Part shown: piece by piece, positions 7,304-33,706 of the stretch
How positions within the stretch are numbered: position 1 is the first letter of the stretch
Layout: every line of letters begins with the position of its first letter
DNA from: Shigella phage SP21535
Length of the DNA stretch: 64,000 nucleotides
Strand: one strand, 5' to 3'
Sequence record: PQ615101
Translations under genes and position numbers: made by a program
Notes under the pieces: generated by a model
What the model was told of the DNA's origin: nothing
Database searches by the model: none
What the model saw: only the letters and a program-made list of their open reading frames with translations

Positions 7304-7376
7304 TGGGAATTAGCCAAGTTGGTAAGGCATAGCACTTTGACTGCTAGATGCAAAGGTTCGAGTCCTTTATTCCCAG
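7304..7376 (+). tRNA. tRNA-Gln (anticodon UUG)
   Basis: Cloverleaf folded by hand: acceptor TGGGAAT/ATTCCCA, anticodon loop cTTTGac, T-arm GGTTCGAGTCC. Confidence 0.8.
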
Positions 7377-7377
7377 C

Positions 7378-7464
7378 GCGAGAATGGTCAAATTGGTAAA
7401 GGCACAGCACTTAAAATGCTGCGGAATGATTTCCTTGTGGGTTCGAGTCCCACTTCTCGTACCA
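7378..7464 (+). tRNA. tRNA-Leu (anticodon UAA), long variable arm, CCA encoded
   Basis: Acceptor GCGAGAA/TTCTCGT, anticodon loop TTAA, T-arm GGTTCGAGTCC, ends ACCA. Confidence 0.75.
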
Positions 7465-7470
7465 AAGTTT

Positions 7471-7542
<72 letters not shown>

Positions 7543-7554
7543 AAATTTAATTTA

Positions 7555-7628
7555 CTCCGTGTAGCTCAGTTTGGTAGAGCGTCTGCTTTGGGAGCAGAAT
7601 GTCGCAGGTTCAAATCCTGCCGCGGAGA
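7555..7628 (+). tRNA. tRNA-Pro (anticodon UGG)
   Basis: Acceptor CTCCGTG/CGCGGAG, anticodon loop tTTGGga, T-arm GCAGGTTCAAATCCTGC. Confidence 0.8.
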
Positions 7629-7630
7629 CT

Positions 7631-7717
7631 GGAGGCGTGGCAGAGTGGTTTAATGCACCGGTCTTGAAAACCGGCAGTCGCTCCGGCGACTCATAGGTTC
7701 GAATCCTATCGCCTCCG
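7631..7717 (+). tRNA. tRNA-Ser (anticodon UGA), long variable arm
   Basis: Acceptor GGAGGCG/CGCCTCC, anticodon stem CCGGT/ACCGG loop CTTGAAA. Confidence 0.8.
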
Positions 7718-7724
7718 TAATTTC

Positions 7725-7797
7725 GCTGATTTAGCTCAGTAGGTAGAGCACCTCACTTGTAATGAGGACGTCGGCGGTTCGATTCCGTCAATCAGCA
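7725..7797 (+). tRNA. tRNA-Thr (anticodon UGU)
   Basis: Acceptor GCTGATT/AATCAGC, anticodon stem CCTCA/TGAGG loop CTTGTAA. Confidence 0.8.
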
Positions 7798-7803
7798 TAT
7801 CAA

Positions 7804-7875
7804 GGCCCTGTAGCTGGAAGGTTCAAGCAAGCGACTCATAATCGCCAGATGGTGGTTCAATTCCACCCAGGGCCA
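7804..7875 (+). tRNA. tRNA-Ile (anticodon CAU, presumably modified to read AUA as in T4)
   Basis: Acceptor GGCCCTG/CAGGGCC, anticodon loop cTCATAa, T-arm GGTTCAATTCC. Confidence 0.75.
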
Positions 7876-7916
7876 TATTTTGGGAACATAAATACTCTTA
7901 GAAATAGGAGATATTT

Positions 7917-8582
7917 ATGTTCCATTACACTTATAAAATAACAAATAAAATTAATAATAAAATTTATATTGGTGTGCATTCTACCGAAAATTTAGATGAT
8001 GGATATATGGGTTCTGGTAAATTATTAAAAAGAGCCCAAGACAAGTATGGTATAGAAAATTTCTCTAAAGAAATATTAGAGTATTTTGATGATAAAGAAT
8101 CTATGCTTGAAGCCGAGAAAAATATTGTCACAGAAGAGTTTTTAAATAGACCAGATGTGTATAATTTAAAACTTGGCGGTGAAGGTGGATGGGACCATAT
8201 AAATATTCCTGGGATGCTAAACCAGAAGAAAGATGCTAGCTTAAAAGGAGCTAAATCGTTTAAATCACGTTTTGAAAATGATATTTTACTTCAAGAAAAA
8301 TATCGTAAAATTGGTTCAAATGTATTTAAACGTTTGTGGTCAACTCCTGAATACAAGGAAAAATTTTTAAATAATAGCAGATTTTTAAATAAGCATCATA
8401 CTCCTGAAACTATTAATAAAATGAAAGAAATTCACGCTAAAAATAATCACCAGAAAGGAGAAAAGAATTCCCAATTTGGTATGATGTGGATTCATTCATT
8501 AGATGAAAAAGTTTCTAAACGTATTAAGAAAACTGACCCAATTCCAGAAGGATGGTTTAAAGGTCGAAAAATGAAATTTTAA
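7917..8582 (+). CDS. segB: GIY-YIG homing endonuclease SegB
   Basis: 221 aa inside the tRNA cluster as in T4; YKITNKINNKIYIGVHSTENLDDGYMGSG GIY-YIG motif. Confidence 0.85.
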   Translation: MFHYTYKITNKINNKIYIGVHSTENLDDGYMGSGKLLKRAQDKYGIENFSKEILEYFDDKESMLEAEKNIVTEEFLNRPDVYNLKLGGEGGWDHINIPGMLNQKKDASLKGAKSFKSRFENDILLQEKYRKIGSNVFKRLWSTPEYKEKFLNNSRFLNKHHTPETINKMKEIHAKNNHQKGEKNSQFGMMWIHSLDEKVSKRIKKTDPIPEGWFKGRKMKF

Positions 8583-8585
8583 TTA

Positions 8586-8662
<77 letters not shown>

Positions 8663-21692: not shown

Positions 21693-21959
21693 ATGGGCTT
21701 TCCTAAATTAGAAGTAGGTGATTTAGTTTTAACAAAATTATGGAATGGTGTTCAATCAGTAGAAATCTGCCAATATCGTGGAGCAACAGGTAATTTGATG
21801 TACACGATTTATAATCCAGAAATTTTGTTAGAGTGTCATTTGGAACGCTTTATAAAAGACACCGATAGTATGCCTTATAGTGTATCAATTGTACGTAAAT
21901 CTGATACAAAGGAATATTCTAAAATTTTAGAACAAATTCGTGCCAATAAAAAGGATTAA
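21693..21959 (+). CDS. hypothetical protein
   Basis: Track ORF 21681..21959; ATG 21693; 88 aa. Confidence 0.5.
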   Translation: MGFPKLEVGDLVLTKLWNGVQSVEICQYRGATGNLMYTIYNPEILLECHLERFIKDTDSMPYSVSIVRKSDTKEYSKILEQIRANKKD

Positions 21960-21960
21960 T

Positions 21961-22500
21961 ATGAAACGATTAGTATTAGAAGTTAGTTCACTTTTTGGTG
22001 AATTGGCTATAGAAAAAGTAAATAATATGTATCGTTTGACGCAAGAAGATGATATGCTATATTTTACGCCTAGTGAAATCATTCATTTAACCCAAATTGA
22101 AAATCCTTATACTGATAAAATTGTAAGCATTAATGATGAGCATAAAATTCATTTTTATTCTTCATGCCCAGGATTTAATATTGAAAGCGAGTCAATATGC
22201 TTATCAGTTATCCATTGGGATAGTTTTATAGATAAGATTAAATATTTTTATTATTCTAATGAAAGAAAACATAGTTTAAAATGGCTTAAAAATTGCAATG
22301 CTATTATTACTAACGCTTGTGATCAGTGCGATCAGAATGATGAAACTGATACTTATATGTGTGTTTTAAAAGCTGGTGGTGACCGTCATCCGGATTTTAT
22401 TTCTATTCGTCAAAACAATGGAGAAATTTCATTATCAAAATCAGAAGCTGAAGCTATGATTAAGTATTTAACAACTGTTACACCTTCAATGAAAGGATGA
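21961..22500 (+). CDS. hypothetical protein
   Basis: Track ORF 21940..22500; ATG 21961 behind AAGGA; 179 aa. Confidence 0.5.
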   Translation: MKRLVLEVSSLFGELAIEKVNNMYRLTQEDDMLYFTPSEIIHLTQIENPYTDKIVSINDEHKIHFYSSCPGFNIESESICLSVIHWDSFIDKIKYFYYSNERKHSLKWLKNCNAIITNACDQCDQNDETDTYMCVLKAGGDRHPDFISIRQNNGEISLSKSEAEAMIKYLTTVTPSMKG

Positions 22501-22982
22501 TTATAATTATGATTATTAATGAAAACTCTTGGCACTATAAAATTTACTCGGCATTTAATAGCACATGGAATCGTCCAAAAACGTTATGTGCTTATTTTTG
22601 GAAAACGTTTCTCCCGGTATTAGCTGTTTCAATTGTTGGATTTGCAACTTTAGCAGGTGCCGCAATAATTGGCCAAGAAATTTTAATTAAATTCTTTGTC
22701 TTTAGTAGTCTATGGACATTAGTTCCGGCTTCAATTGGTATAGGCATTTTAGCATTATCGGTTATGGTTCTTATTGCTGTCGGGGCGGTAATTGGTCCTT
22801 CCTGGTTGTTAGACAAATATAACGACCGAAAGCTCAATAAAGAAATTGAGTTCATTGTACAAAACGAAGAACGAATCAAAAATGGACTTGAGCCTATTCA
22901 ACCCAAGAAATCGATTATCGTTGAATTTTTAAAAGCTCGTAAAGCTAAAGTATGTCCTGTTATTGAATATAAGGCTGAATGA
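22497..22982 (+). CDS. membrane protein
   Basis: 161 aa with multiple hydrophobic helices. Confidence 0.55.
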   Translation: MIIIMIINENSWHYKIYSAFNSTWNRPKTLCAYFWKTFLPVLAVSIVGFATLAGAAIIGQEILIKFFVFSSLWTLVPASIGIGILALSVMVLIAVGAVIGPSWLLDKYNDRKLNKEIEFIVQNEERIKNGLEPIQPKKSIIVEFLKARKAKVCPVIEYKAE

Positions 22983-23992
22983 TGAAAACAGTAATGAAAA
23001 GTTATTTTGGTAGTCATCTTTATGGAACTTCTACCCCAGAATCTGATGTAGATTTTAAAGAAATCTTTGTTCCTCCTGCTCGCGATATTCTTATTGGAAA
23101 TGTTAAAGAGCACATGAGTAAAAACACTAACAACACATCATCTAAAAACACTAAAGATGATATTGACCACGAATTGTATAGTCTTAAGTATTTCTTTAAA
23201 TTAGCAGCAGATGGTGAAACTGTAGCATTAGATATGCTTCACACTCCACCTGAGCTAGTGGTTAAATCTGATTTGCCTGATGTGTGGAAGTTTATTCAAG
23301 ACAACCGTTCTCGTTTTTATACGACTAACATGAAATCCTATTTAGGATATGTCCGTAAGCAAGCTTCTAAATACGGTGTCAAGGGTTCTCGTTTGGCCGC
23401 ATTACGTGATGTATTGAAAGTAGTTAATCAAATCCCTGACCAGTGGGTCGACTATCAAGAAGGAATCCCTGATAGACTTCGTCGCACTAAAGTTGAAGAT
23501 ATTAAGCATCGTCTTCCAGAAAACGAGTTCTGTGAATGGGTGTTCCATAATTATGAGAAAACAGGCCCGCAAATGTTCTACACTGTGTTGGGTCGTAAAT
23601 ATCAGACAACGCTTTCTCTTATTGAGCTTAAGCAGTCACTGAACAAATTAGATGCTGAATATGGTGAACGTGCCCGTAAGGCCGAAGCCAACGAAGGTAT
23701 TGACTGGAAAGCTCTGAGCCATGCTTGTCGTGGTGGACTTCAACTATTGGAAATTTACAAAACTGGTGACTTGGTTTATCCACTTCAAGACGCTCCATTT
23801 ATTCTTGACGTGAAGTTGGGTAAACATCCATTTAAAACGGTTCAAGAGTTTTTGGAAGATGTGGTCGATCAAGTAGAAGCAGCATCTACTGAAGCTTCTA
23901 AGAACGGTATGCCTAAAACAGTAGACATGAGTTTCTGGGATGACTTCCTTGAGAAGGTCTATCTTGAAAACCACCGAAGTTATTATAAATGA
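22979..23992 (+). CDS. predicted nucleotidyltransferase (Pol-beta superfamily-like)
   Basis: 337 aa; N-terminal FGSHLYGTSTPESDVDF fits the NTase signature hG[GS]x9-13[DE]h[DE]h. Confidence 0.5.
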   Translation: MMKTVMKSYFGSHLYGTSTPESDVDFKEIFVPPARDILIGNVKEHMSKNTNNTSSKNTKDDIDHELYSLKYFFKLAADGETVALDMLHTPPELVVKSDLPDVWKFIQDNRSRFYTTNMKSYLGYVRKQASKYGVKGSRLAALRDVLKVVNQIPDQWVDYQEGIPDRLRRTKVEDIKHRLPENEFCEWVFHNYEKTGPQMFYTVLGRKYQTTLSLIELKQSLNKLDAEYGERARKAEANEGIDWKALSHACRGGLQLLEIYKTGDLVYPLQDAPFILDVKLGKHPFKTVQEFLEDVVDQVEAASTEASKNGMPKTVDMSFWDDFLEKVYLENHRSYYK

Positions 23993-24057
23993 TAGGGAGC
24001 CTTCGGGCTTATGGTACTATACAACTATCAAAACAAACACTTAAACGGAAAAACAAA

Positions 24058-24207
24058 ATGAAAATTACACCAATTGAAGTAAAAAAGTTGATTGATACAG
24101 AAGAAATTTCAGAGTGTTTTGAAAGTTTCTTAGAAGATGCAACTGAAGATAATGCAGTTTATCTCGCTCAGAAAATTATCGAAACTTATTTGGAGAAGAA
24201 TCAATGA
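24058..24207 (+). CDS. small hypothetical protein
   Basis: Track ORF 23989..24207; first ATG after the promoter at 24058; 49 aa. Confidence 0.4.
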   Translation: MKITPIEVKKLIDTEEISECFESFLEDATEDNAVYLAQKIIETYLEKNQ

Positions 24208-24467
24208 CAGTTTACGTAGATGTTTTAATGAATCATGGATGGAAACTTCGCGGTCATCCAACTAAAAATTGTCATATGTTCACTGATGGAGATATTGAAG
24301 AGCTTCACGAAATGGCAGAAGCAATAGGAATGAAACGTTCTTGGTTTCAAGATAAACGCATTAAACATTATGACTTACACGCTCGGCGACGCCAAAAAGC
24401 TGTAGAACTTGGAGCTGTAGAAGTATCTCGTCGCGAAGCAGTAAAAATTTGGCAAACATTAAAATAA
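24204..24467 (+). CDS. hypothetical protein
   Basis: 87 aa ORF. Confidence 0.5.
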   Translation: MTVYVDVLMNHGWKLRGHPTKNCHMFTDGDIEELHEMAEAIGMKRSWFQDKRIKHYDLHARRRQKAVELGAVEVSRREAVKIWQTLK

Positions 24468-24501: not shown

Positions 24502-24536
24502 ACCCTATCAAAACAAATGTAAAATTGGAGAATAAA

Positions 24537-25505
24537 ATGAAAACTGTAACTATCAATAAGGGTATCTACTTCGGTAAAGAAATCTCTGGAACTTTTGAGC
24601 TCTTAGGCGAATGGTTCCCAGATAATGCTCCGGTAGATGTACAAGGAGATGGTAAAGTTTTTGTTGAAATTGACGGTAAACGTCGCGGTGTTTGGGTTTA
24701 CAAATCAGACATTTCATATGATGGTGTAAAAGTTGAAGAAGTTAAAGAATCGTATGAAGATATGAAAACCCGCATTAATAAAAGATTTAATGTTATGGGA
24801 ATGATGACGAATGGTATTATTAATGGAAACATTCGTTCATTAATTATCTCTGGTGCGGCGGGTATTGGTAAAACGTATTCTTTAGATAAAGCTTTGAATA
24901 AAGCAAATGATAATGGATACATTGAATATAAAAGCATTAACGGTAAAATCTCTGGTATTGGTCTTTATGAGCAGCTTTGGAATAATCGTGAAGAGAATTC
25001 TGTCCTTTTGATTGATGATGTGGATGTTTTCTCTGATATGGACATTCTTAATCTTCTAAAAGCCGCTCTGGACACTGGAGAGACCCGTAAAGTCTGCTGG
25101 AGCACTGCATCTTCTTACTTAGAAGAAAAAGGCATTGAGCGTGAGTTTGAATTTAAAGGAACGATTGTTTTTATCACAAACGTTGACATTGACCGCGAAT
25201 TAGACCGTGGTACTAAACTTGCTCCACATTTACAAGCATTAGTATCCCGCTCAGTTTATTTGGATTTGGGTGTTCACACTAATGAAGAAATTATGGTCAG
25301 GGTTGAAGATGTTATTCTTTCAACCGACATGATGCAAAAGCGCGGTCTTTCTGATGAAGAAACTTATAAAGCATTATCATGGATGAAAGTCAATGTTAAT
25401 CGTTTACGCAATGTTTCACTGCGTACTGCACTTTATCTTGCTGACTTTATTATGACCGACAAAAACGGTTGGCAAGAAATTGCTGAGGTTACTCTTCTGA
25501 AATAA
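24537..25505 (+). CDS. AAA-type P-loop ATPase
   Basis: Walker A GAAGIGKT and Walker B LLIDDVD; track ORF 24525..25505 (TTG), ATG 24537 behind GGAG. Confidence 0.6.
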   Translation: MKTVTINKGIYFGKEISGTFELLGEWFPDNAPVDVQGDGKVFVEIDGKRRGVWVYKSDISYDGVKVEEVKESYEDMKTRINKRFNVMGMMTNGIINGNIRSLIISGAAGIGKTYSLDKALNKANDNGYIEYKSINGKISGIGLYEQLWNNREENSVLLIDDVDVFSDMDILNLLKAALDTGETRKVCWSTASSYLEEKGIEREFEFKGTIVFITNVDIDRELDRGTKLAPHLQALVSRSVYLDLGVHTNEEIMVRVEDVILSTDMMQKRGLSDEETYKALSWMKVNVNRLRNVSLRTALYLADFIMTDKNGWQEIAEVTLLK

Positions 25506-32139: not shown

Positions 32140-32673
32140 CGATTGAAAAAGAAATTGAAGGATTAATTCATAAAACTAATAAAGACCTTTTAAACGAGAA
32201 TGCTAATAAAGATTCTCGTGTTTTTCCAACTCAACGGGACCTTATGGCTGGTATTGTGTCTAAACATATTGCCAAAAATATGGTCCCGTCTTTTATTATG
32301 AAAGCGCATGAAAGCGGAATTATTCACGTGCACGATATTGATTATTCCCCTGCTCTTCCATTTACTAATTGCTGTTTAGTAGATTTAAAAGGAATGCTTG
32401 AGAATGGATTTAAGCTCGGTAATGCACAGATTGAAACTCCTAAATCAATCGGTGTTGCTACTGCAATTATGGCACAAATTACTGCGCAGGTTGCTTCTCA
32501 TCAATATGGCGGAACGACTTTTGCGAATGTAGATAAAGTACTTTCTCCTTATGTTAAACGCACCTACGCAAAACATATTGAGGATGCGGAAAAATGGCAA
32601 ATCGCTGATGCATTGAATTATGCTCAATCTAAAACAGAAAAAGACGTATACGATGCATTCCAGGCGTATGAGT
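32136..32673 (+). CDS. nrdD: anaerobic ribonucleotide reductase NrdD, exon 1
   Basis: ORF 32136..32681; 5-prime splice site placed after U32673 by a 6-bp P1 pairing of exon AUGAGU with GCUCAU in the intron. Confidence 0.75.
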
Positions 32674-33706
32674 TAATTTAATTCAGGCTCATGTAAAACC
32701 GGTCTAAACGGGGAACCTCTCTAGTAGACAATCCCGTGCTAAATGTTCTTTTGAACTAAATGCCTAACGACTAACCGTGATGAATGTAGCGGTGTAGAAT
32801 AGAAGCTAATGCTATTCGAAACGGCCGGCATCGAAAGATGAAGATATAGTCTAATCTGCATGGCGACATGCAGCAGTCATCTTGTATAAATAAGATTATC
32901 TTATGAATACGAGGTGAAACAATGAAATGGATAAAAAGACGTTGTACTAAAATAAAAGATAAAGACGCATTTACATACTTAGTTAAGTTTTCTAATGGCG
33001 ACATTTATATCGGTTATAAAAAATTTAGAACAATTAAAAACAAGCCCACAAACTGGAAAACTTACACAACGTCATCTAAGTATATAAATGAACGCTTAAA
33101 AACTGATACACCTACTAAATGGATAATTTTAAAAACATTTGATAGTTATAAAGATGCATTAAAACATGAAGAAGAGGTCATACGTAAATATTTTTATAGC
33201 AAAAAATGTTTAAATAAATCCATAGGCGGTAAAAAGTTTTATAAGCATCCGGATACTGAAGAACATATTCAAAAATTAAGAGATGCTCATAAGGGTAAAG
33301 TGTTATCCGAATCTCATAAAAACAATATAAAATCTTCTGTAGCTGAATATTATGCTAAAAACGGAAGATCTAAGGAACATGTGCAAAATAATATCAATAG
33401 TCGAAAAAGTAAAAAACAAGTATCGATAAAGCTTAAAAATAAAACTTTTAGAAGTTTTAAAAAAGCAGCGGAATATTTAAATTGCACTGAAAGTGAAGTC
33501 GAAACTCATCCTCTTGTTTTGAGTATTAAGACTACTATTCATAAAGTTCCTGAATATGTGGTTGTTGACGGTATTAAGTATACGTCTTATATAGAAGCAG
33601 CTAAAGCGCTAAATTTTCATCCTAGCACTATAAAAGAACGTTGCATATCTATGGACTATCCAAATTTTGTTGTTTCATATAAACGGGCATGAATTTGCGA
33701 CTCATG
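32674..33706 (+). mobile_element. group I intron in nrdD (T4 nrdD/sunY-type) carrying I-TevII
   Basis: Starts UAAUU like the T4 td intron; core CUAAACGGGGAACCUCUCUAGUAGACAAUCCCGUGCUAAAU; inferred length 1033 nt equals the T4 nrdD intron. Confidence 0.75.
32922..33692 (+). CDS. I-TevII: intron-encoded GIY-YIG homing endonuclease I-TevII
   Basis: 256 aa ORF inside the intron; FTYLVKFSNGDIYIGYKK motif. Confidence 0.8.
   Translation: MKWIKRRCTKIKDKDAFTYLVKFSNGDIYIGYKKFRTIKNKPTNWKTYTTSSKYINERLKTDTPTKWIILKTFDSYKDALKHEEEVIRKYFYSKKCLNKSIGGKKFYKHPDTEEHIQKLRDAHKGKVLSESHKNNIKSSVAEYYAKNGRSKEHVQNNINSRKSKKQVSIKLKNKTFRSFKKAAEYLNCTESEVETHPLVLSIKTTIHKVPEYVVVDGIKYTSYIEAAKALNFHPSTIKERCISMDYPNFVVSYKRA

What the first reader, a model, noticed from the sequence alone, without database searches (positions are those of the whole stretch)
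22979..23992. Nucleotidyltransferase-like protein with GS..D.D signature
The 337-aa ORF starts with FGSHLYGTSTPESDVDF, which fits the Pol-beta superfamily signature hG[GS]x9-13[DE]h[DE]h, followed by a large helical domain. Such enzymes in phages may make or modify nucleotide signals, tRNA ends or antibiotic-like substrates; the function is open.
Basis: partly seen in the sequence, partly recalled or inferred. Interest (0 to 1): 0.55.

Follow-up and report, generated by a model that had tools for sequence, protein, structure and literature searches.

The report
T4 nrdC.11-type RlaP nucleotidyltransferase
This gene is the well-conserved phage T4 gene nrdC.11, already catalogued as a nucleotide-adding enzyme of the RNA-repair-linked RlaP family, so the finding is real but ordinary, although the phage enzyme itself has never been tested in the lab.

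The parts
22979..23992 (+). CDS of the nrdC.11 ortholog, 337 aa including the first of two adjacent ATGs; the end coordinate includes the stop codon
   Evidence: ORF list and translation. 95.5% aa identity to T4T nrdC.11 and 100% to Escherichia phage vB_EcoM_IME537. T4 nrdC.11 (NP_049709.1) is annotated 'nucleotidyltransferase' in the syntenic position tk ... mobD.1 - nrdC.11 - nrdC.10.
22982..23524 (+). Region homologous to canonical RlaP (residues 2-182): the NTase alpha/beta core plus the first helices
   Evidence: Pfam RlaP matches residues 7-136 to profile positions 23-143 of 249. hhalign of the long-form alignment A1 against the canonical short-RlaP alignment A4 gives probability 93.6%, E 2e-7, over residues 2-182.
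23006..23056 (+). hG[GS]...[DE]h[DE]h signature: G11-S12 at the strand-to-helix turn, D23 and D25 at the start of strand 2
   Evidence: Sequence. Column counts are G11 139/139, S12 139/139, D23 138/139, D25 138/139. Secondary structure is E3-10, H12-15, E24-31.
23159..23167 (+). D61-I62-D63: the third catalytic carboxylate (D63) at the start of strand E62-68
   Evidence: Position 63 is D in 136 and E in 3 of 139; D61 is D in 132 of 139. D63 aligns with the invariant D72 of canonical RlaP in hhalign.
23441..23605 (+). Beta-rich insert (residues ~155-209) within the non-catalytic part; not purely helical, and the aligned stretch to canonical RlaP ends at residue 182
   Evidence: AF2 secondary structure E155-160, E163-169, H172-178, E185-192, E196-203, E206-209. 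The hhalign match to canonical RlaP stops at residue 182.
23702..23731 (+). Family-specific C-terminal motif D242-W-K244-A-L-S-H248-A-C-R251 on helix 243-262; probably lines the substrate cleft (inference)
   Evidence: H248 and R251 are 139/139, K244 is 138/139, D242 is 135/139. The motif was specific enough to serve as the search pattern that recovered 370 viral and 156 genomic relatives.

Best explanation
The gene encodes the T4 NrdC.11-type 'long form' of the RlaP family of Pol-beta-superfamily nucleotidyltransferases. Shown here: it has the NTase fold and a complete, invariant metal-binding and catalytic set (G11-S12, D23, D25, D63). Its N-terminal ~180 residues are homologous to canonical RlaP. 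[quoted passage not shown] The main target would be the 5' half of tRNAs whose anticodon loop was cut, and trimmed by a nucleotide, by host anticodon nucleases of the RloC type. After this step the phage's own Pnkp and RNA ligases (encoded elsewhere in T4-type genomes) could reseal a full-length, functional tRNA. The family-specific C-terminal module (beta insert plus the DWKAxSHAxR helices) presumably forms the RNA-binding side of the cleft and sets substrate choice. That last step is pure inference.
Confidence: 0.62

Rival explanations
1. HalB-like oligonucleotide synthase. The enzyme polymerises (d)NTPs into a short nucleic-acid signal or decoy. One possible purpose is to keep a host Hailong-type guard channel closed, or otherwise to manipulate nucleotide-based immunity.
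Against: No PADLOC model matches the NTase or its neighbours. There is no sequence link to HalB or HalA in the PDB. The membrane gene is absent from T4, where mobD occupies that position, and from the divergent viral loci L041-L083 apart from four Acinetobacter-phage-type loci and two close relatives. No conserved C-terminal tyrosine exists at a fixed position: Y335 and Y336 fall in mostly gapped columns. HalB priming on a C-terminal Tyr is my recollection of Tan et al. 2025, which I could not retrieve. Gene neighbourhoods point to RNA repair instead. The PfRlaP crystal structure is evidently not in the PDB copy searched, so HalB may rank first only by default.
Confidence: 0.08
2. tRNA 3'-end (CCA-type) maturation or repair. 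The enzyme adds nucleotides to the acceptor ends of phage or host tRNAs that lack, or have lost, part of CCA.
For: It is an RNA 3'-end NTase by family. The window's tRNA cluster (7304-8662) has five of eight tRNAs without an encoded CCA. CCA-type PolyA_pol genes and Thg1 occur near divergent homologs, so tRNA-end biology is the shared theme.
Against: There is no match to the CCA-adding family PF01743, and NTP_transf_2 reaches only E 0.09. Characterised RlaP shows little NTP specificity and prefers the nicked anticodon-loop end over the acceptor end. From my own knowledge of T4 genetics (not checked here), maturation of T4 tRNAs lacking CCA depends on the host CCA-adding enzyme, which argues the phage has no equivalent. 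Some divergent phages carry both a CCA enzyme and this NTase nearby, which suggests the two roles are not redundant.
Confidence: 0.1
3. Nucleotidylylation of a small molecule or a protein (aminoglycoside/lincosamide-type resistance enzyme, or an AMPylating MNT-type regulator).
For: Kanamycin NTase, ANT(4'), LinB, AadA and MNT appear among the weak structural matches.
Confidence: 0.04

Closest known systems
Phage T4 NrdC.11 (NP_049709.1)
   Same: Orthologous: about 95.5% amino-acid identity (measured against T4T nrdC.11), same length to within one residue, same position between the mobD.1 homolog and nrdC.10 downstream of tk.
   Different: In this phage a 161-aa membrane-protein gene occupies the place of T4's mobD homing endonuclease. 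Two extra small ORFs, one of them DUF4031, lie between nrdC.11 and nrdC.10.
Canonical RlaP, PF10127 (Pseudomonas PfRlaP/PaRlaP; ~250 aa)
   Same: Homologous NTase core and first helices, with G-S, D-x-D and the third Asp in register. Both occur in RNA-ligase/Pnkp/RtcB neighbourhoods (PMC12776372).
   Different: This protein is about 85 residues longer. Its C-terminal half has no detectable sequence homology to canonical RlaP and includes a beta-rich insert. It falls in a different SSN cluster (5 rather than 1a). In at least 22 of 80 cellular loci the long form and a canonical short RlaP are adjacent genes, so they are paralogs rather than interchangeable. Activity is unmeasured.
Hailong HalB (PDB 9dbh/9dbj)
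   Different: No sequence-level relationship, no PADLOC hit, no conserved terminal Tyr, and no recognisable HalA partner. HalB is a host defence protein that makes oligodeoxyadenylate.
3c18 nucleotidyltransferase-like protein (Exiguobacterium) and kanamycin NTase/ANT(4')
   Different: Only the core aligns (TM 0.24-0.36). There is no family-level sequence match, and the biological context differs.

Membership tests
Pol-beta-superfamily nucleotidyltransferases | hG[GS] at the turn after strand 1 | tested here: met
   F10-G11-S12; G and S are 139/139 in alignment A1; strand E3-10 followed by helix H12-15.
Pol-beta-superfamily nucleotidyltransferases | [DE]h[DE]h pair on strand 2 plus a third carboxylate on a later strand | tested here: met
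   D23 and D25 are 138/139, at the start of E24-31. Position 63 is D in 136 and E in 3 of 139, at the start of E62-68.
Pol-beta-superfamily nucleotidyltransferases | Alpha/beta NTase fold | tested here: met
RlaP (PF10127) | Match to the family profile above its curated threshold | tested here: met
   43.8 bits against a cutoff of 23, E 3.2e-11, but only profile positions 23-143 of 249. hhalign to canonical members gives 93.6%, E 2e-7.
RlaP (PF10127) | Canonical C-terminal helical domain of the characterised enzymes | tested here: not met
   Residues 135-337 and 205-337 give hhalign probability below 1% against canonical RlaP. The Pfam match stops at residue 136. A direct structural comparison with PfRlaP was not possible, because its structure was not in the PDB copy.
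RlaP (PF10127) | Gene neighbourhood with RNA ligase or other RNA-repair genes (the origin of the family name) | tested here: inconclusive
   Not met in this window: no Rnl1, Rnl2 or Pnkp relative in 64 kb. Met for long-form relatives elsewhere: L002, L078, L090, L130, L165, and Pnkp, RtcB, RtcA and Ro60 in cellular loci.
RlaP (PF10127) | Addition of 1-2 NMP to RNA 3'-OH, Mn2+-preferring, inactive on DNA | not testable with these tools
   Biochemical property reported for PfRlaP and PaRlaP only.
Hailong HalB | Recognised by defence-system models and paired with a HalA membrane effector | tested here: not met
   No PADLOC hit for the NTase or its neighbours. The adjacent membrane protein has no Pfam or PDB sequence match, is absent at this position in T4, and is undetected in the divergent viral loci L041-L083 apart from four Acinetobacter-phage-type loci and two close relatives.
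Hailong HalB | Conserved C-terminal tyrosine used for priming (recalled from Tan et al. 2025; paper not retrievable) | tested here: not met
   Y335 and Y336 lie in mostly gapped, unconserved columns. The only semi-conserved Tyr (Y328, 82/139) lies in the final helix.
CCA-adding enzymes / poly(A) polymerases (PF01743) | Match to the PolyA_pol head-domain profile | tested here: not met
   No PF01743 hit at E up to 0.1; NTP_transf_2 reaches only E 0.09.

The most novel reading that the evidence does not exclude
The NrdC.11-type long form may be a functionally distinct branch of RlaP rather than just another member. Its unique, structurally unmatched C-terminal module (beta insert plus DWKAxSHAxR helices) could give it a different acceptor or nucleotide specificity from the promiscuous short enzymes. 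In cells it could work as an obligate partner of the adjacent short RlaP, for example two enzymes each restoring one defined nucleotide. T4-type phages would then have kept only the long form, perhaps coupled to the NrdC.10 ATPase, as a dedicated counter to nucleotide-excising anticodon nucleases. A still more unusual option, also not excluded, is HalB-like signal or decoy synthesis.
Probability: 0.15. Interest if true: 0.55.

Novelty: already known. Interest (0 to 1): 0.22.

Why it matters
The T4 tRNA repair pathway (Pnkp plus Rnl1 against PrrC) is a founding example of phage counter-defence. Hosts answered with RloC, which removes the wobble nucleotide so that simple religation gives a dead tRNA. 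A phage enzyme that restores missing nucleotides would be the next move in that arms race. If NrdC.11 does this, a gene conserved in over 1,500 sequenced phages gets a function, and the RloC/T4 conflict becomes directly testable. That idea is already in the literature for the RlaP family. What this analysis adds is modest. It gives independent support that the long NrdC.11 form is linked to RNA repair. It shows that the C-terminal half differs from the characterised enzymes. It also shows that long and short forms occur as adjacent genes in many bacteria.

Tried and rejected
1. The motif as evidence: the regex occurs once in the window against 0.64 expected by chance, so it was rejected as stand-alone support.
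2. Sequence searches of the PDB with the protein, its N-terminal half, the long-form profile and the canonical-RlaP profile found nothing meaningful. The PfRlaP crystal structure is evidently not in that copy.
3. Foldseek against the PDB gave only weak hits (E at least 6.6e-3, TM at most 0.37). They are usable for fold class only.
6. hhalign of the C-terminal half against canonical RlaP found no homology.
7. NCBIfam and PADLOC gave no hits for the NTase.
8. The Hailong-like reading was tested through PADLOC, the membrane neighbour and the terminal Tyr, and is not supported. The Hailong paper and the Burroughs & Aravind 2016 paper could not be retrieved.
9. The promoter/terminator scan around the gene was uninformative: many weak sigma-70-like matches.
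10. Single-sequence phmmer for RNA-repair genes near viral homologs had low sensitivity, so it was supplemented by Pfam censuses. One census exceeded the residue limit and was redone on a subset.

Full report
**Observation.** The window is a T4-type (Tequatrovirus) phage genome. A 4-kb stretch around the finding is 95-98% identical to many Escherichia and Shigella T4-like phages. The ORF at 22979-23992 (+) is intact and encodes 337 aa. Its protein is 100% identical to that of phage vB_EcoM_IME537 and 95.5% identical to T4T nrdC.11. Synteny with T4 is preserved: tk, rI, the mobD.x genes, nrdC.11, nrdC.10. The start is ambiguous by one codon, because ATG 22979 overlaps the upstream stop as ATGA and a second ATG lies at 22982.

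The signature FGSHLYGTSTPESDVDF is present at residues 10-26. The pattern is too loose to mean much alone: it occurs once in the window, against 0.64 +/- 0.85 expected in shuffled proteins.

**What it is.** The NTase call rests on stronger evidence than the motif.
- Pfam RlaP (PF10127) matches residues 7-136 at E 3.2e-11, above the curated cutoff.
- PHROG 388 'nucleotidyltransferase' matches end to end at E 5e-137.
- An exhaustive search finds 3,506 clusters (50% identity level) at E up to 1e-3, and 831 at E up to 1e-30.
- In an alignment of 139 full-length members at 34-55% identity, G11 and S12 are invariant, D23 and D25 are 138/139, and position 63 is always acidic.
- AlphaFold2 gives a confident model (pLDDT 94.6, pTM 0.85). 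G-S lies at the strand-1/helix turn, D23 and D25 open strand 2, and D63 opens a later strand. This is the classical Pol-beta NTase arrangement.
- The best Foldseek hits (ranks 1-17) are all NTases, although weak.

**What is already known.** nrdC.11 orthologs were linked to the COG3541 nucleotidyltransferase domain in 2006 (PMC1524935). RefSeq names the T4 protein 'nucleotidyltransferase'. [quoted passage not shown] A December 2025 preprint (PMC12776372) characterised two Pseudomonas RlaPs. They add one or two NMPs from any NTP, and also from dATP, to RNA 3'-OH. They prefer Mn2+, do not act on DNA or protein, and prefer the 5' half of a nicked tRNA. They can partly restore aminoacylation of a tRNA that has lost an anticodon-loop nucleotide. 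That preprint places T4 NrdC.11 in SSN cluster 5 of the family but calls it an RlaP 'of unknown function'. T4 tolerates loss of nrdC.11-mobD.3 (PMC9825161).

**Independent tests of the RNA-repair link for this long form.** In the window itself there is no RNA ligase or Pnkp relative. T4 encodes these enzymes far away, at 109-137 kb. Relatives of the long form, however, are directly adjacent to such genes:
- L002: Rnl2-type ligase -> NTase.
- L078: NTase -> RNA ligase -> Pnkp, end to end.
- L090: NTase -> Pnkp -> Rnl1-like.
- L130 and L165: a Pnkp phosphatase or kinase ORF abuts the NTase.

A census of ORFs of at least 200 aa within 6 kb of 27 divergent viral homologs found Thg1 (4), RNA_ligase (3), RtcB (2) and CCA-type NTases (2). 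The long form is also widespread in bacteria and some archaea at 32-54% identity, mostly 33-41%. In 24 such loci the commonest neighbours are bacterial Pnkp (PNKP_ligase 4, Metallophos 4, AAA_33 3), RtcB (2), RtcA (2) and Ro60 (2). These genes are rare in bacterial genomes, so this enrichment is hard to attribute to chance. Per-genus counts of phage records with NrdC.11, Pnkp and Rnl1 are almost identical in T4-type hosts, though shared ancestry confounds that comparison.

**Where it departs from the characterised enzymes.** Profile-profile comparison with canonical ~250-aa RlaPs is significant only for residues 2-182 (93.6%, E 2e-7, catalytic residues in register). The C-terminal half shows no homology. 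It contains a beta-rich insert (~155-209) and helices carrying the invariant K244, H248 and R251. An isolated model of this half has no structural neighbour.

Unexpectedly, a canonical short RlaP lies immediately next to the long form in at least 22 of 80 cellular loci, almost always just downstream. None of the 81 viral loci has one. So the two forms are co-occurring paralogs, and phages keep only the long one. In 36 of the 81 loci, mainly the closer T4-type relatives, the long form is followed by the NrdC.10 P-loop ATPase.

**Mechanism and rivals.** The best-supported reading (about 0.6) is RlaP-type addition of one or two nucleotides to broken RNA 3' ends ahead of Pnkp/Rnl repair. This would plausibly counter nucleotide-excising anticodon nucleases such as RloC. 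The fold and active site are shown; the acceptor, the nucleotide choice and the biological target are inferred.
- A CCA-type role is conceivable, because five of the eight phage tRNAs here lack an encoded CCA. However, there is no CCA-family match, and classical T4 genetics (from my own knowledge) assigns that step to the host enzyme.
- Small-molecule or protein nucleotidylylation rests only on core-fold resemblance.

**Verdict.** The gene is T4 nrdC.11, already annotated as an NTase and already filed under RlaP. Novelty: already known. Interest is low. The residual value lies in the untested phage enzyme, its unmatched C-terminal module, and the long/short pairing seen in cellular genomes.

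Noticed in passing
L091:5245-6976, L104:6001-7727, L111:5851-7705, L121:5986-7743 and about 18 further cellular loci (L093-L162): In bacterial genomes and MAGs, the long NrdC.11-type NTase lies immediately next to, almost always just upstream of, a canonical short RlaP (PF10127 full length, E down to 1e-81). This holds in at least 22 of 80 loci, and in none of 81 viral loci. It suggests a two-enzyme unit that phages have reduced to the long form.
   Followed up: partly
window 24525-25505 (+): The nrdC.10 ortholog is a 326-aa P-loop ATPase (GAAGIGKT) with weak nSTAND3, AAA_16 and AAA_14 matches. It follows nrdC.11 in 36 of 81 viral loci and has no assigned function. It could be a functional partner of the NTase in T4-type phages.
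   Followed up: partly
window 22497-22982 (+): A 161-aa predicted membrane protein (PHROG 944, no Pfam match) overlaps the nrdC.11 start (ATGA). It occupies the position where T4 has the mobD HNH homing endonuclease. Homologs lie upstream of nrdC.11 within 10 kb in 41 of 81 viral loci.
   Followed up: partly
window 23989-24207 and 24204-24467 (+): Two small ORFs, a 72-aa protein (PHROG 6888) and an 87-aa DUF4031 protein, sit between nrdC.11 and nrdC.10. T4 has only a 114-bp gap there. In other T4-like phages the DUF4031 gene is sometimes located a few kb further downstream.
   Followed up: no
public phage records matched: Many GenBank and UniRef entries label NrdC.11 orthologs 'thioredoxin', apparently propagated from the gene name nrdC.11. 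One entry labels it 'HNH homing endonuclease'. These are annotation errors: the protein has no thioredoxin or HNH features.
   Followed up: partly
window 7304-8662 (+): Cluster of eight phage tRNA genes (Gln, Leu, Gly, Pro, Ser, Thr, Met/Ile-CAU, Arg). Only Leu, Met/Ile and Arg end in an encoded CCA. The other five would need post-transcriptional CCA addition.
   Followed up: partly
window 32638-32873 (+): Group I catalytic intron (Rfam RF00028, 70.6 bits). By position it may correspond to the T4 nrdD intron region. This was not examined further.
   Followed up: no
viral loci L041-L083, within 6 kb of the NTase gene: NAD-salvage genes (NAPRTase 7, NAMPT_N 6), NUDIX (5), SPFH/Band_7 (5) and Thg1 (4) recur near divergent NrdC.11-like genes in large phages. 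This may just reflect early-region gene clustering, or a wider tRNA-end and nucleotide-metabolism module.
   Followed up: no
window 21940-22500 (+): The mobD.1 ortholog matches the recently defined Pfam domains T4_y05I_N and T4_y05I_C ('putative transcription factor'), at E 5e-38 and 1e-22.
   Followed up: no
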